IMG/VR virus record: IMGVR_UViG_3300014970_000032
Coordinates: 1 to 16,413 of that record
Direction: 5' to 3' (one strand)
Length of the DNA: 16,413 nucleotides
From: a virus
Lineage: Duplodnaviria; Heunggongvirae; Uroviricota; Caudoviricetes
Both the position numbers and the translations under genes were made by a program. Position 1 is the first letter of the stretch; each line of letters begins with the position of its first letter. Positions 9,628 through 13,130 of this stretch are shown in pieces. Under the pieces are notes generated by a model. The model was given only the letters and a program-made list of their open reading frames with translations. It searched no databases and was not told the DNA's origin.

Positions 9628-9875
9628 ATCTCTTAAAAATATTATTTTTGAGATGTGCTTCTACACTGACAGTAAGAACAAAAGATAATGTATCAGCCCA
9701 CTAGATGTCAGAGGTTGGGGCATCAACCAGATGCAAACAATAATACGGATGTTTTTCCCACATGACAGAGGAAGTCAAGTATAATCTTCACAGTCCATCC
9801 CGTCCAAGGGAATATGACTCAATAGTAAAAGTTCCAGTTTAGTTAGTAGACCCACACTTTATAGAAGAGTAATTC

Positions 9876-12800
9876 ATGATTGGACAATTTTTAAGTGCAA
9901 CAGAGATTTTAGCAAAGAACTATGTTCGTAATAAAATGGTTAAAAATCCATTTTATTCGAATTTAAAATGGAATTTTATTGAAAAAAACATCATAAGATT
10001 AACATCCTCACCGGTTAAATCAGTACTTTGCATATCAGCTTTTTCATTTGTACTACTTTATGTTGGATATTTAAACGAATTATTTATAAAAAATAATCTT
10101 TTACATTATTTCCCGTTTAGGCATTCATTAACCGAATGGCAAACAACCATTTTAAGTGGCCAATTGACAATTATTGGTATTGTATACCCCCTTGTTATAG
10201 GTTTAGTAAGTGTCTTATTCCAAAAAAAGGCAGATAGAAAAATAGCCCAAACTGCTTATCAGCGTTACTCAGGATTCATGCTTGCTGGACTCAGCGGGCT
10301 TTTCTTATCAGGATTTATACTTCTCAGTGTACTAATTAAAACTGTCTTTGGAAGTTATCTTTATGGTATAGCTTGTCTAATCAGCATATTATGGCTTTTG
10401 ATAAACATAGTTCTTTCTATTTGGTTCTTTATCGTGAGTCTTGAAATTCTTGATGATGTAAAACGGCAAATAATTATAAAGCGATACATTGCCTTCGAAA
10501 TAGTAATGCCCCATATTTGTAACAAAATCTCAGCCAAGCTTAGGTTATACCCTATCTATCAAAAACATAACTATTCAAATTTAGAAATCAAGCAAGCCGA
10601 TTACAAAGGAGAATACATATCTGTGGCTAGCGGTTATTCTAAGGAAGATGAGTTAAGTTTATATCACCGTCCTTTTCAACTTACTCTTAATCTTATTAAT
10701 TACCAACTAAAAAAGAAGAATCATTTTGCGTCATTTGTCATTGGTGATAATCGTGCAAAAGAAACAGAATCCACGGGTAAGATACTTTTTAGCGTTAAAA
10801 ATATCAAACCAGACAGCTTATTAATAAAAATACTTAAGCAATGTTTTTATAGGGCTCCGATTAAAGGAGGAGATTTTTCCGTAAGTCTTACAATGCAGGC
10901 TATAACAGCAGATACGTATATGTATCTGCGGGATTCTGATCTCATTAGTTTTGACGATGCTATCTCTGCATTAATTAATAACTTTAATAATCTCTGCGAT
11001 TTGTATTTTTTTCAAGATGATAATACCAACAATAACTTCTTACTGATCACTACAGAATTATTTGAACGGAGTTTTCAATATGAGTTTTCAGATGAAGTTT
11101 ATAAAATATCAAATAATTCCATGGATAAAATTAATCTTTCTGAAAGATTTTTTGAATTATGTCTTTGGAGCGGAGTGCGTATTATCAATAATAGAAAACA
11201 TCTTATCAGCAATGAACTTTGTATCTATATGGGAATTACTCGTTCACAATGGTCAATATTAACAGAATGGTTCCGAAACAACCAATCACTCTTAAATGCC
11301 TCGCTTCGTTCACGTTATAATCGTATATTAAGAACCTATACCACTGTTTGGGAGCAATATCAAGAAAGCATAAACTTTCGTTTCTGCAATACAGAGAATT
11401 CAGATTTATTTGAATTATTTTGCAAAACGCAACTACAAGAACTTCCATCGATGATTATTGATGCAACACAGACTCGCGATCCTTCTACTATTGATACAGC
11501 CGTCGATCTTATTAACCGATGGCAGCACTCAATGAATATTGACAGCCATTCGGTAGAAAAATACAGTTACAAAGGCCAGCTTTTTAACCCGGGTTTTTTC
11601 ATATCCAAAAAACTAAACTTCAATTCAGACAGAGAGTGGTTCAATATTGCCATCATAAATGCGTTGACTGACATGCGTATATGCACATGTCTTTATCTGA
11701 CATCAAGAATCAATACTTCTGACAAACTAATGACACATTACATTAAACTTATTTTAGAGGGTAAACTTATTGACCAAACCGGTGGATATGAAACTCCCAC
11801 TGAAGAAATTGATAATGCAAGCCAACTAATCAAGATATTAATTAGAATCTGCCTGTGGACATGGTCTGAAAATATGGAGCACAATGGGTGGATGAATAGT
11901 TTAGCAAGGCGTTTACGTGACTTTGATAAAACAGACATGGTGATGGGCAGAGTTTACAGTAATGTTTTTGACTGTGGATTTATTGATATGGAACAATCAT
12001 GGGTTCAGCTATTATTAATTTTTTCTAACAAGAACGATAGCGTATCAAAAGAAATAAAAGAAGCAATAGAAAACAACTATATAACATATCGTGAGAAGCA
12101 ACGACTCATTGGAGTATTATCAAAAATTTGTAACTCCATCGAATACACTAAAATCAAGCTGACTTTAACATTGGACGATCTCCAAACAAAAAAAGAAAAC
12201 TTAAGAAAGTTGCTTCAAGAGCATATTAACATGCTAAAGAAAGATCTTGATATGAGACTTCAGGATGCTGCCATAGATGTACATCGACTAGATAGCACTG
12301 CACGTAAAACATCAGAACATCTTCGTAAACGCATCAAGAAAACGCTCCCTCTTTCACTTTTCAAATCTATTGATTTTAAGCAGGCTAGCGATTGTTTCAC
12401 AAAACATAAGATATCTATTAAGATAGATAAAGAACCGTATGCCGAAGGAATAGAATCCATCCCTTATATCAATGAAGGTGATATTCAAGCAGACTTAATT
12501 CTCAAGGACATCCAGAGAATAATACTTTCAAATTTATTTAGCACTGGCTGTTCGCAACATACCGTAATAGAAGATTTCAATATGTTGATTGATCACATAA
12601 AATCATCTGCTGACTTGGCTGGCAAACTGGTTCTTGTGATGAGTAAAGAGATCTTTCAGCAATATAATCGTATGCTTTTCGATAATCCCAACCTCAGAGA
12701 ACTAATGAGAAAAAATGATGATGGCTCTATGAACATAACTACTGAATCCGGTACCTGTAAGGTTTACTTCTTACCATTTGTTAATCAACCATTTTCTCTT

Positions 12801-12995
12801 GTGGTAAAGGATAACTACTTCACTAAATTAATTATTAGAGAGTATGATAATAATAAGTTAGTAAATGTCACTTCAGAGAATATCAAAAGTGACTCAGATA
12901 AATTCAAGCTAACTCTTAACTATGAGTTGAATATAGTATTTGAAGGAAACGCTGATTTAAAAATAGCTCACTCGCAAAGAGTGACATCAGAATAA
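9876..12995 (+). CDS. Large membrane-anchored protein of unknown function (1039 aa; 4 predicted N-terminal TM helices)
   Basis: Long uninterrupted AT-rich ORF. Hydrophobic segments at about aa 47-67, 97-116, 133-155 and 162-190, then ~850 aa soluble region with a charged, coiled-coil-like stretch (about aa 760-800). No Walker or other motif recognised. Confidence 0.75.
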   Translation: MIGQFLSATEILAKNYVRNKMVKNPFYSNLKWNFIEKNIIRLTSSPVKSVLCISAFSFVLLYVGYLNELFIKNNLLHYFPFRHSLTEWQTTILSGQLTIIGIVYPLVIGLVSVLFQKKADRKIAQTAYQRYSGFMLAGLSGLFLSGFILLSVLIKTVFGSYLYGIACLISILWLLINIVLSIWFFIVSLEILDDVKRQIIIKRYIAFEIVMPHICNKISAKLRLYPIYQKHNYSNLEIKQADYKGEYISVASGYSKEDELSLYHRPFQLTLNLINYQLKKKNHFASFVIGDNRAKETESTGKILFSVKNIKPDSLLIKILKQCFYRAPIKGGDFSVSLTMQAITADTYMYLRDSDLISFDDAISALINNFNNLCDLYFFQDDNTNNNFLLITTELFERSFQYEFSDEVYKISNNSMDKINLSERFFELCLWSGVRIINNRKHLISNELCIYMGITRSQWSILTEWFRNNQSLLNASLRSRYNRILRTYTTVWEQYQESINFRFCNTENSDLFELFCKTQLQELPSMIIDATQTRDPSTIDTAVDLINRWQHSMNIDSHSVEKYSYKGQLFNPGFFISKKLNFNSDREWFNIAIINALTDMRICTCLYLTSRINTSDKLMTHYIKLILEGKLIDQTGGYETPTEEIDNASQLIKILIRICLWTWSENMEHNGWMNSLARRLRDFDKTDMVMGRVYSNVFDCGFIDMEQSWVQLLLIFSNKNDSVSKEIKEAIENNYITYREKQRLIGVLSKICNSIEYTKIKLTLTLDDLQTKKENLRKLLQEHINMLKKDLDMRLQDAAIDVHRLDSTARKTSEHLRKRIKKTLPLSLFKSIDFKQASDCFTKHKISIKIDKEPYAEGIESIPYINEGDIQADLILKDIQRIILSNLFSTGCSQHTVIEDFNMLIDHIKSSADLAGKLVLVMSKEIFQQYNRMLFDNPNLRELMRKNDDGSMNITTESGTCKVYFLPFVNQPFSLVVKDNYFTKLIIREYDNNKLVNVTSENIKSDSDKFKLTLNYELNIVFEGNADLKIAHSQRVTSE

Positions 12996-13003
12996 TATCT
13001 TTG

Positions 13004-13034
13004 ACGGCGCTCCTTAGAGTGCCGTTCGTTTATT
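13004..13034 (+). terminator. Candidate rho-independent terminator after the 1039-aa gene
   Basis: Stem acggcgct / agtgccgt (8 bp, one G-U) with 6-nt loop, followed by T-rich tcgtttatt. Confidence 0.4.
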
Positions 13035-13130
13035 AACTAATGCTAAAAATCATTATATAGAGAAAGTCATGTTTAAATCTTAGAGAATACAACCTAGAAT
13101 AGTGCAAGCACTACAATAAGAGAGGTCGCT

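What the first reader, a model, noticed from the sequence alone, without database searches (positions are those of the whole stretch)
9628..13040. Stand-alone 1039-aa membrane-anchored protein of unknown function inserted between tail gene D' and ogr
Seen in sequence: a single very long ORF (9876..12995), strongly AT-rich against GC-normal phage fragments on both sides, with four hydrophobic helices in the first ~190 aa, a large soluble domain and a charged coiled-coil-like segment. I recognise no catalytic motif. It has its own upstream non-coding region and a downstream hairpin. Inference: a large, compositionally foreign gene wedged between D and ogr of a P2-like element is the pattern expected for a moron or single-gene defence cargo, for example a membrane-disrupting abortive-infection effector. 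It could instead be a fitness or virulence factor.
Basis: partly seen in the sequence, partly recalled or inferred. Interest (0 to 1): 0.75.

Follow-up and report, generated by a model that had tools for sequence, protein, structure and literature searches.

The report
Membrane protein with a capsid-fold domain
A prophage remnant carries an unstudied 1039-residue membrane protein whose cytoplasmic end is predicted to fold like a phage capsid protein; it occupies a swappable cargo slot and its relatives sit among anti-phage genes, so it is probably a new kind of phage-defence gene.

Summary
ORF 9876-12995 (+) is intact, 1039 aa and 32.9% GC against about 51.5% in the flanks. It has four N-terminal transmembrane helices, a 248-bp upstream non-coding region and a stable downstream hairpin.

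It lies exactly between D and ogr of a P2-like prophage remnant. In a spread sample of E. coli genomes, that junction was empty in 17 of 28 cases. In the other 11 it held other single genes, including GmrSD, a PIN-domain protein, DUF2971 and YecA.

The protein matches nothing in Pfam, NCBIfam, PADLOC or PDB sequences, and only one non-significant PHROG hit. The RefSeq name "MFS transporter" is wrong. It belongs to a large unnamed family: 506 clusters at 50% identity, nearly all full length, mostly Gammaproteobacteria. Members are always stand-alone. In Enterobacterales they usually lie among defence genes, and in two distant members the gene sits inside a type I restriction-modification operon.

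My best reading is a single-protein anti-phage module. Its capsid-like domain would engage phage head assembly and its membrane domain would act as effector. The defence role is inferred from context, the mechanism is speculative, and no phenotype exists.

The parts
9019..9627 (+). Left boundary: truncated tail gene D. Only the part from about 9203 onward derives from D; 9019-9207 is a tail-sheath fragment fused to it by a 1.7-kb deletion.
   Evidence: Phage_GPD C-terminal match. Blastn against the intact prophage L001 gives window 7613-9207 = L001 8276-9870 and window 9203-16413 = L001 11576-18786. Bases 9019-9207 match sheath genes in other genomes.
9628..9875 (+). Upstream non-coding region belonging to the cargo (37% GC), with a weak sigma-70-like site at 9660-9689 and an AGAAGAG purine run 6 nt before the ATG.
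   Evidence: Homology with empty and other-cargo junctions ends at the D stop codon. No ORF of 33 aa or more lies within it. The promoter scan is a consensus match only.
9876..12995 (+). The 1039-aa ORF, a stand-alone member of an unnamed family of ~1040-1150-aa membrane proteins.
10008..10460 (+). aa 45-195: four-helix transmembrane domain, the most conserved part of the family (P105 and N177 invariant; Q96, G138, S140, L144, W173, F184 nearly invariant across 58 diverse members).
   Evidence: Hydropathy, AF2 helices 46-66, 85-117, 134-158 and 160-190, conservation, and retention in nearly all distant members.
10461..11075 (+). aa 196-400: cytoplasmic alpha/beta domain with no fold assigned.
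11076..12170 (+). aa 401-765: all-helical repeat (solenoid-like) domain with conserved polar residues W492, E493, D544, R548, W549, N595, D599, R601 and R657.
11937..11963 (+). aa 688-696, MVMGRVYSN: a conserved loop (G691, R692, Y694 invariant or nearly so family-wide) lying in the only long low-confidence stretch of the model (685-700).
   Evidence: AF2 helices 766-797 and 802-820. Conservation.
12351..12980 (+). aa 826-1035: C-terminal domain with the HK97 major-capsid-protein / encapsulin fold (beta-hairpin 831-851, spine-like helix 867-889, then a helix/sheet region).
13003..13026 (+). Terminator-like hairpin after the stop codon, with a weak T-run.
   Evidence: -17.5 kcal/mol, z -4.4.
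13131..13391 (+). Right boundary: ogr (late-gene activator, zinc finger).
   Evidence: PF04606 at E 5e-14; annotated as ogr in L001 and L002.

Best explanation
Shown in silico. The ORF encodes an inner-membrane protein with an N-in four-helix membrane domain (aa 45-195). The rest is cytoplasmic: an alpha/beta domain (196-400), a helical-repeat solenoid (401-765), a charged helical hairpin (766-825), and a C-terminal domain with the HK97 capsid-protein fold (826-1035). It is a self-contained cargo gene with its own upstream region and hairpin. It occupies a variable slot between D and ogr of a P2-like prophage that has since decayed around it. It belongs to a large, unnamed, horizontally mobile family whose members are always single genes.

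Inferred from context, about 0.6. It is a single-gene anti-phage defence system.

Proposed mechanism, about 0.3. The capsid-fold domain makes capsid-type contacts with a head-assembly component of an infecting phage: major capsid protein capsomers, scaffold, prohead protease or portal. This clusters the protein at the membrane, and the signal passes through the solenoid. The conserved 4-TM domains then form a leak that collapses membrane potential and aborts the infection. A variant of the same idea is direct poisoning: phage capsid subunits are tethered to the membrane without cell death.
For: Architecture.

Cargo slot: the junction is empty with a 42-bp D-ogr gap in L017. In a spread sample of 28 junctions, 17 were empty and 11 held alternative single genes (GmrSD, PIN-domain, DUF2971, YecA, hypotheticals). 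Homology breaks at the D stop codon.

Rarity and mobility: 5 of 5426 E. coli genomes, 377 of 72,556 plasmids, and 14 loci among 100,044 species genomes. The gene is AT-rich relative to its flanks in 11 of 12 hosts.

Stand-alone nature and defence neighbourhoods:
- HEC-04-like ATPase unit and a RES toxin on ColM plasmids.
- mREase IV-like HNH, PDC-S15 and PDC-M04A (DUF3800) in a primase-bearing island.
- DUF3800 and a TIR protein in Serratia.
- PifA-like KAP NTPase in Pectobacterium.
- HsdR, S-4TM effector, PDC-S06, VapBC and DUF3800 on pF070-NDM5.
- VWA-PP2C-kinase and HNH in Desulforhopalus.

Embedding: the order is hsdM-hsdS-[gene]-hsdR, with overlapping or abutting reading frames, in L034 and L040. 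Genes embedded in type I R-M clusters have been shown to be defence genes (TgvAB, 10.1101/2024.04.04.588119).

Retention: this gene and the PD-Lambda-5 pair remain intact while structural genes of the prophage were deleted.

Selection: nearly all of the 150 best of 506 representative clusters are full length. The 4-TM domain is the most conserved part (62% mean pairwise identity) and the capsid-fold domain among the least (30%), as expected for a conserved effector joined to a fast-evolving recognition module.

Against: There are no phenotype data of any kind. The protein and 28 relatives match no PADLOC model, and nothing significant in Pfam. Many family members, in V. cholerae, Acinetobacter and most of the 13 species-level loci surveyed, sit among housekeeping genes, so defence enrichment is uneven. 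The capsid-fold assignment rests on predicted models only, at 4-12% identity to the hits. No sequence signal supports it: hhalign against the resident P2-family capsid protein gives probability 0.8%, and there are no PHROG hits. The family is absent from 50,697 deposited phage genomes. The high identity of the TM domain may partly reflect hydrophobic composition. No effector swapping was seen that would prove a sensor-effector split. The two R-M-embedded cases share a related R-M operon (HsdM 78% identical) and so may not be independent.
Confidence: 0.5

Rival explanations
1. Superinfection exclusion at the inner membrane. The protein sits in the membrane of the lysogen and blocks genome entry or an early membrane-associated step of incoming phages, without killing the cell. 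The large cytoplasmic part would bind ejected phage proteins or DNA.
For: It is a prophage-borne inner-membrane protein with its own promoter-like region, located in a cargo slot. The same defence-context evidence as above applies. Prophage-encoded membrane exclusion proteins are a well-known class (own knowledge: P22 SieA, T4 Imm, HK97 gp15).
Against: Known exclusion proteins are small. Here about 850 residues are cytoplasmic, only short loops face the periplasm, and the domain with a recognisable fold resembles a late-stage assembly protein. Embedding in type I R-M operons fits a second-line system better than an entry block.
Confidence: 0.15
2. Not a defence gene. It could be a mobile-element cargo with another role, such as plasmid or prophage maintenance, inter-element competition against plasmids or satellites, membrane stress adaptation, or a fitness or virulence factor.
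For: The family is more common on plasmids (377 records, mostly conjugative) than in phage-like elements. It is absent from deposited phage genomes. Many chromosomal copies have housekeeping neighbours. On plasmids it sits near TA modules and colicin genes.
Against: Plasmid accessory regions also hold defence islands, and the same loci contain PADLOC-recognised genes. The D-ogr slot's other occupants include a restriction enzyme. R-M operon embedding is hard to explain by a virulence role. There is no secretion signal and no Pfam match to a virulence-associated domain.
Confidence: 0.22
3. The capsid-fold resemblance is real but incidental. The C-terminal domain would be only an oligomerisation or scaffold module (pentamer/hexamer-like), or an old exapted capsid domain that no longer contacts phage proteins. 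Sensing would be done by the alpha/beta or solenoid domains, or by the membrane domain itself.
For: Most conserved polar residues lie in the solenoid and in the 688-696 loop, not in the capsid-fold domain, where only F829 and F982 are invariant and K852, C961 and L1012 nearly invariant. HK97-fold proteins naturally self-assemble into pentamers and hexamers (own knowledge). Hits are spread evenly over all capsid lineages, with encapsulins on top, so no specific phage lineage is implied.
Against: Low conservation of the domain is also what a fast-evolving recognition surface would show. This cannot be decided with the tools available.
Confidence: 0.3
4. It is an MFS transporter, as RefSeq and GenBank name it.
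For: Only the database name supports this.
Against: It has four TM helices rather than 12. No MFS or other transporter family matches in Pfam or NCBIfam, even at E <= 1. About 850 residues are cytoplasmic. Other copies of the same protein are named 'hypothetical', and one UniRef cluster of a homolog is named 'Nicotinate-nucleotide adenylyltransferase', which shows the names are automatic noise.
Confidence: 0.01

Closest known systems
Cargo ('moron') defence genes of P2-like prophage hotspots (old, tin, fun/Z and the systems of Rousset 2022 / Vassallo 2022)
   Same: It is a single, AT-rich, self-contained gene in a variable slot of a P2-like prophage. Alternative occupants of the same slot include a GmrSD restriction enzyme. 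The window also carries PD-Lambda-5 (PMC9122126, PMC9519451).
   Different: The slot is the D-ogr junction. It is not among the positions I found described in the passages I read from two papers: gpA/portal (tin/old), the fun locus within or near the tail genes, and integrase-att (PMC9519451; 10.64898/2026.02.27.708500). I did not read the supplementary hotspot maps. The protein is unrelated in sequence to every PADLOC family.
Genes embedded in type I R-M operons (PrrC anticodon nuclease; TgvAB of V. cholerae VPI-2)
   Same: Two distant family members lie between hsdS and hsdR with overlapping or abutting reading frames. Embedded genes of this kind have proved to be defence genes (10.1101/2024.04.04.588119).
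   Different: The window's copy is not next to an R-M system of that type. The protein has no ABC-ATPase or nuclease (PrrC) domain and no GmrSD domain, and it is membrane-anchored.
Membrane-acting abortive-infection effectors with about 4 TM helices (lambda RexB, CBASS S-4TM, Kiwa KwaA)
   Same: It has a four-helix membrane domain that is the best-conserved part of the protein, and it occurs in a defence context.
   Different: No sequence match to any of them in PADLOC or Pfam. Here the TM domain is fused to about 850 cytoplasmic residues in one polypeptide, with no partner gene.
HK97-fold capsid homologues used against helper phages by satellites (SaPIbov5 Ccm)
   Different: Ccm is a soluble, free-standing protein in a satellite packaging module that builds small capsids. 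This domain is the tail end of a membrane protein with no packaging genes of its own. There is no sequence similarity.
Immune sensors triggered by major capsid proteins (CapRel-SJ46; Lit)
   Same: The proposed target class is phage head proteins, which are established triggers (PMC9712102).
   Different: Those sensors do not themselves have a capsid fold, and their effectors are enzymes (tRNA pyrophosphokinase, protease) rather than a membrane domain.
Capsid-derived restriction factors of animals (mouse Fv1, sheep enJS56A1; own knowledge, not tested here)
   Same: The concept is the same: a host gene built from a viral capsid fold that interferes with viral capsids.
   Different: The fold (retroviral Gag) and the kingdom are different, there is no membrane domain, and the comparison is purely an analogy.

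Membership tests
MFS transporter (the RefSeq name) | About 12 TM helices in two six-helix bundles | tested here: not met
   Only four hydrophobic helices, all within aa 45-195.
MFS transporter (the RefSeq name) | Match to MFS profile families (e.g. PF07690) | tested here: not met
   No Pfam or NCBIfam match for the protein. None among 28 relatives at E <= 1.
HK97-fold capsid protein / encapsulin superfamily | HK97 fold (spine helix, P- and A-domain sheets, E-loop-like hairpin) | tested here: met
HK97-fold capsid protein / encapsulin superfamily | Sequence-profile membership in a capsid or encapsulin family | tested here: not met
   No Pfam, PHROG or PDB-sequence hit. hhalign against the resident P2-family capsid protein gives probability 0.8%.
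HK97-fold capsid protein / encapsulin superfamily | Gene context of a head module (portal, protease/scaffold, terminase) or of an encapsulin cargo enzyme | tested here: not met
   The gene is stand-alone and its neighbours differ in every locus.
HK97-fold capsid protein / encapsulin superfamily | Assembly into closed shells | not testable with these tools
   This needs biochemistry or EM. Fusion to a membrane anchor makes a closed shell unlikely (inference).
Known or candidate anti-phage systems (PADLOC-DB v2) | Match to a system's protein HMM | tested here: not met
   0 families for this protein. The newest DefenseFinder models were not available.
P2-like prophage hotspot cargo | Lies at a position that is empty or differently occupied in related prophages | tested here: met
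P2-like prophage hotspot cargo | Confers phage resistance when expressed | not testable with these tools
   This is an experimental question.
Type I R-M-embedded defence genes (PrrC/TgvAB-like arrangement) | Located inside an hsdM-hsdS-hsdR operon | tested here: inconclusive
   Met for distant homologs L034 and L040. Not met for the window copy or for most loci examined.
4-TM membrane effectors (RexB, S-4TM, KwaA) | Sequence or profile similarity of the TM domain | tested here: not met
   No PADLOC or Pfam match. Only sub-threshold compositional hits to unrelated membrane families.

The most novel reading that the evidence does not exclude
A bacterial and mobile-element immune protein built from a viral capsid fold. 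A membrane-tethered HK97-fold domain would recognise or co-assemble with the head proteins of infecting phages by capsid-type contacts. It would then either poison head assembly or gate a fused four-helix membrane effector. This would be a prokaryotic counterpart of capsid-derived restriction factors such as Fv1, and a new sensor principle (recognition by homotypic fold) for a family of more than 500 sequence clusters that no current defence catalogue recognises.
Probability: 0.3. Interest if true: 0.9.

Novelty: new variant of a known kind. Interest (0 to 1): 0.77.

Why it matters
If the family is defensive, it adds an uncatalogued single-gene system that is widespread on Enterobacterales plasmids, including NDM-5 and ColM plasmids, on prophages and on islands. 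It also points to a P2-like prophage cargo slot, D-ogr, that I did not find named among the described hotspots.

The domain architecture is the main interest. I did not find an HK97 capsid fold reported as part of a cellular membrane protein. That statement rests on six full-text searches, two of them aimed at capsid-like domains in defence proteins, so the literature check is limited.

The finding makes a concrete idea testable: immunity by capsid mimicry, or by interference with head assembly at the membrane. It also bears on how capsid folds are exapted outside virions, as in encapsulins, gene transfer agents and satellite Ccm. Practically, the family may affect phage-therapy host range in E. 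coli, Shigella, Klebsiella and Enterobacter. The current database name 'MFS transporter' should be corrected.

Tried and rejected
- **Profile searches.** The protein, and 28 relatives scanned one by one, gave no usable hit in Pfam, NCBIfam, PHROGs or PADLOC. A 28-sequence profile gave none against PDB sequences.
- **MFS transporter.** Rejected on architecture.
- **Sequence link to capsid proteins.** The C-terminal domain showed none: hhalign against the resident P2-family capsid protein gave probability 0.8%, and PHROGs gave nothing for 17 domain sequences.
- **Alternative N-terminal effectors.** I looked for family members with a different N-terminal effector, which would prove a modular sensor-effector design. 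Members with poorly aligned N-termini still carry the same 4-TM motif, or are probably truncated, and have no Pfam domain.
- **Conserved partner gene.** None exists. Neighbours differ in every locus.
- **Transposon-like boundaries.** No flanking repeats or transposon-like ends surround the cargo; only chance-level short repeats were found.
- **Literature.** Searches for the accessions, and for capsid-like or HK97 domains in defence proteins, found no description of this family.
- **Tool limits.** The afdb50 fold library was unavailable. The 58-sequence alignment was too diverse for the genome scan. The first attempt to scan it against PADLOC and Pfam exceeded the residue limit.
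Full report

Yes. The window has one uninterrupted ORF at 9876-12995 on the + strand, 1039 aa with an ATG start. Its GC content is 0.329. The left flank is 0.516 and the right flank 0.515.

A hydropathy scan finds four hydrophobic helices, all between residues 45 and 195. The N-terminus, loop 116-132 and the segment after helix 4 are rich in Lys and Arg. This indicates an N-in/C-in topology, so the remaining ~850 residues face the cytoplasm (sequence; positive-inside rule).

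The 248-bp upstream stretch 9628-9875 contains no ORF of 33 aa or more. It has only a weak sigma-70-like match at 9660-9689. The hairpin at 13003-13026 is stable (-17.5 kcal/mol, z = -4.4) but lacks a good T-run.

The gene is intact elsewhere:
- Five complete E. coli genomes carry it at 99.1-99.8% identity.
- Seven IMG/VR contigs carry it at 98-100% identity, six full length and one cut at the contig end.
- The exact protein is public (DAY64176.1), in a cluster of 692 sequences from Shigella and E. coli.

**2. Where does it sit?**

The window is the E. coli/Shigella btuC-ihfA-pheT region with a decayed P2-like prophage. Its contents are:
- an integrase (2453-3577, -);
- a second AT-rich island, which is the PD-Lambda-5 methyltransferase/ATPase pair (4342-6902);
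- fragments of tail genes;
- a truncated D;
- the big ORF, then ogr, a hok-family ORF (13582-13722), ihfA and pheT.

In strains VG38-53E1 and RIVM_C040348 the same gene lies in a complete P2-like prophage, again between D and ogr. Compared with these, the window has lost 1.7 kb spanning part of the sheath gene and the 5' part of D. The prophage decayed while both cargo units stayed intact.

**3. The D-ogr junction is a cargo slot.**

A search with D'-cargo-ogr found this prophage lineage in 1498 of 5426 complete E. coli genomes, but the cargo in only 5. In the evenly spaced sample of hits, 28 covered both D and ogr. Seventeen had the short, empty spacing. Eleven carried other inserts annotated as DUF2971, PIN-domain, GmrSD, YecA or hypothetical proteins.

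I inspected three of them:
- the empty form, where D and ogr are 42 bp apart (L017);
- a 527-aa GmrSD restriction endonuclease (L018);
- a 500-aa PIN-domain protein (L019).

Sequence homology among these forms stops at the D stop codon. No terminal repeats flank the cargo, so exchange by recombination is more likely than transposition. The passages I read from two papers name the gpA/portal locus, the fun locus in or near the tail genes, and integrase-att sites as defence hotspots (PMC9519451; 10.64898/2026.02.27.708500). I did not see D-ogr named there. I did not read their supplementary maps.

**4. What is the protein?**

By sequence it matches nothing. There is no Pfam, NCBIfam or PADLOC family, one non-significant PHROG hit, and no PDB sequence match even with a 28-sequence profile. 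The RefSeq name 'MFS transporter' is contradicted by the four-helix architecture and is one of several automatic names.

It nevertheless belongs to a large family. A word-indexed search found 184 relatives. An exhaustive HMM search found 506 representative clusters (E <= 1e-3) among 1.84 billion proteins, and nearly all of the 150 best are full length, 1030-1150 aa.

Named members come from these genera:
- Escherichia, Shigella, Salmonella, Klebsiella, Enterobacter, Serratia;
- Pantoea, Erwinia, Pectobacterium;
- Vibrio, Shewanella, Pseudoalteromonas, Photobacterium, Psychromonas;
- Acinetobacter, Oleispira and Desulforhopalus.

All are labelled hypothetical.

The family is sporadic. It occurs in 5 of 5426 E. 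coli genomes for this allele, on 377 of 72,556 plasmids, and at 14 loci in a pattern-limited scan of 100,044 species genomes. It is absent from 50,697 deposited phage genomes. The gene is AT-rich relative to its flanks in 11 of 12 hosts examined.

**5. Structure.**

An AlphaFold2 model from a 28-sequence alignment has mean pLDDT 81.3 and pTM 0.66. It shows, in order:
- the four TM helices;
- an alpha/beta domain (about 196-400);
- a long all-helical region (about 401-765);
- a helical hairpin (766-820);
- a beta-rich C-terminal domain.

Foldseek, an independent method, also placed phage capsids among its best hits: PhiTE at E 1.7e-3 and phage S6, both with probability 1.00.

There is no sequence-level support. 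hhalign against the resident P2-family capsid protein gave probability 0.8%, and PHROGs gave no hits. The claim is therefore 'HK97 fold in a confident predicted model', not demonstrated homology.

**6. Conservation pattern.**

Across 28 relatives, mean pairwise identity by region is:

| Region | Identity |
|---|---|
| TM domain | 62% |
| Solenoid | 40% |
| Alpha/beta domain | 36% |
| Capsid-fold domain | 30% |
| Helical hairpin | 28% |

Across 58 very diverse members, the invariant residues are P105 and N177 (TM helices 2 and 4), R692 and F829. Nearly invariant are Q96, G138, S140, L144, W173, F184, F359, W492, E493, W549, N595, D599, G691 and Y694. The G691-R692-x-Y694 motif lies in the only long low-confidence loop of the model (685-700).

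Distant members with poorly aligned N-termini still carry the same TM motif. I found no member with a different effector domain.

**7. Genomic company.**

The gene is always alone on its strand segment and its neighbours differ in every locus. Several neighbours are defence-related:

| Locus | Neighbours |
|---|---|
| ColM plasmids | HEC-04-like ATPase unit; RES toxin |
| Primase-bearing island | HNH with a weak mREase IV match; PDC-S15; PDC-M04A (DUF3800) |
| Serratia chromosomal islet between phn and nrdDG | DUF3800; HNH; a TIR protein |
| Pectobacterium | PifA-like KAP NTPase (E 5e-65); integrase |
| Pantoea plasmid | PLD nuclease-like protein; PIN_12 protein |
| pF070-NDM5 | HsdR; S-4TM effector; PDC-S06 (E 3e-286); VapBC; DUF3800; CcdAB |
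| Desulforhopalus element | VWA-PP2C-kinase triad; HNH |

Most tellingly, in an IMG/VR contig (L034) and in Aliikangiella marina (L040) the gene lies between hsdS and hsdR of a type I R-M operon, with overlapping or abutting reading frames. The two embedded proteins are only 36% identical although the HsdM proteins are 78% identical. Genes embedded in type I R-M clusters have been shown experimentally to be defence genes (TgvAB; 10.1101/2024.04.04.588119).

Against this, V. cholerae, Acinetobacter and most of the 13 species-level loci surveyed have mainly housekeeping neighbours. Three chromosomal copies look disrupted.

**8. Interpretation.**

Shown, in silico: the architecture, the cargo slot, the family, its mobility and its contexts.

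Inferred, about 0.6: the gene is a single-gene anti-phage system.

Proposed mechanism, about 0.3: the cytoplasmic capsid-fold domain engages head-assembly components of an infecting phage through capsid-type contacts. This clusters the protein, and the conserved 4-TM domains then breach the membrane, giving abortive infection. Alternatively the protein simply sequesters capsid subunits at the membrane. Three precedents make this reasonable:
- capsid proteins are common immune triggers (PMC9712102);
- a satellite HK97-fold protein, Ccm, subverts helper capsid assembly (structural hit);
- virion-assembly interference is a known defence strategy (Tai, PMC11364771).

The rivals are superinfection exclusion, a non-defence mobile-element function, and a capsid-fold domain that serves only for self-oligomerisation. 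None is excluded.

**9. Novelty and verdict.**

Nothing in the libraries or papers available to me names this family or describes an HK97-fold domain fused to a membrane anchor. The literature check was limited to six full-text searches, and the newest DefenseFinder models were not available.

As a prophage- or plasmid-borne single-gene candidate with a membrane domain, it is a new variant of a known kind of element. If capsid mimicry is how it works, it would be a new principle for bacterial immunity.

The function remains untested.

Noticed in passing
window 4342-6902 (+): A second AT-rich island (GC 0.324) in the same prophage remnant encodes a D12-class methyltransferase (4342-5187). It matches PADLOC PD-Lambda-5_B at E 9e-122. 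Next to it is an AAA_15/21 ATPase (5205-6902). Together they look like the published PD-Lambda-5 system, but the ATPase's best PADLOC matches were generic (HEC-04, PtuA, AriA) and no PD-Lambda-5_A model appeared among the 25 shown.
   Followed up: partly
window 9019-9627, junction near 9203-9207: The 'D-prime' ORF is a chimera. Its first ~190 nt come from the tail-sheath gene region and the rest is the 3' part of D. The two are joined by a 1.7-kb deletion relative to the intact prophage in strain VG38-53E1. Left of 7613 the window no longer matches that prophage at all.
   Followed up: partly
L017, L018, L019 and hits H7-H34: The D-ogr junction of this P2-like lineage is a cargo slot. In a spread sample of 28 junctions, 17 were empty (D and ogr 42 bp apart where inspected) and 11 were occupied by GmrSD, PIN-domain, DUF2971, YecA or hypothetical genes. 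I did not see this position named as a hotspot in the passages I read from two papers.
   Followed up: partly
L034 2890-12529; L040 7001-16449: Distant family members (26% and about 24% identical to the window protein) are embedded between hsdS and hsdR of related type I R-M operons. The embedded proteins share only 36% identity although HsdM is 78% identical. This means either fast divergence or allele swapping within the operon.
   Followed up: partly
window 11937-11963 (aa 688-696): The motif M-V-x-G-R-x-Y-S, with G691, R692 and Y694 invariant or nearly so across the whole family, lies in the only long low-confidence loop of the AlphaFold model. It is a candidate functional site (binding, gating or cleavage) with no explanation yet.
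   Followed up: no
window 13582-13722 (+): A 46-aa Hok/Gef-family toxin ORF lies downstream of ogr at the prophage end, as annotated in the intact prophages. Its antisense RNA was not detected by Rfam at gathering threshold.
   Followed up: partly
window 13940-14084 (-): The only Rfam hit in the window is the enterobacterial sRNA STnc540 (41.3 bits, gathering threshold 38). It overlaps the 3' end of ihfA.
   Followed up: no
database records: The protein is variously named 'MFS transporter' or 'hypothetical protein', and the UniRef cluster of a homolog is named 'Nicotinate-nucleotide adenylyltransferase'. None of these is supported by any profile match. Many Shigella members of the 692-sequence cluster are short fragments, which could be pseudogenes or contig ends.
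   Followed up: no
window 9690-9720 versus L018/L019 cargo left ends (alignment A3): Just after the D stop, the GmrSD and PIN cargo variants share a short stretch (…CCGCTTTGT.CCAG…) that resembles the first codons of ogr (…TGTCCGCTTTGTGGC…). It could be a footprint of recombination at ogr, or an alignment artefact.
   Followed up: no
L042, L043, L045: In Alteromonas, Psychrobacter and one Vibrio genome the family gene appears shortened or broken: the longest ORFs are 704 aa, 559 aa and none. This suggests occasional decay of chromosomal copies.
   Followed up: no
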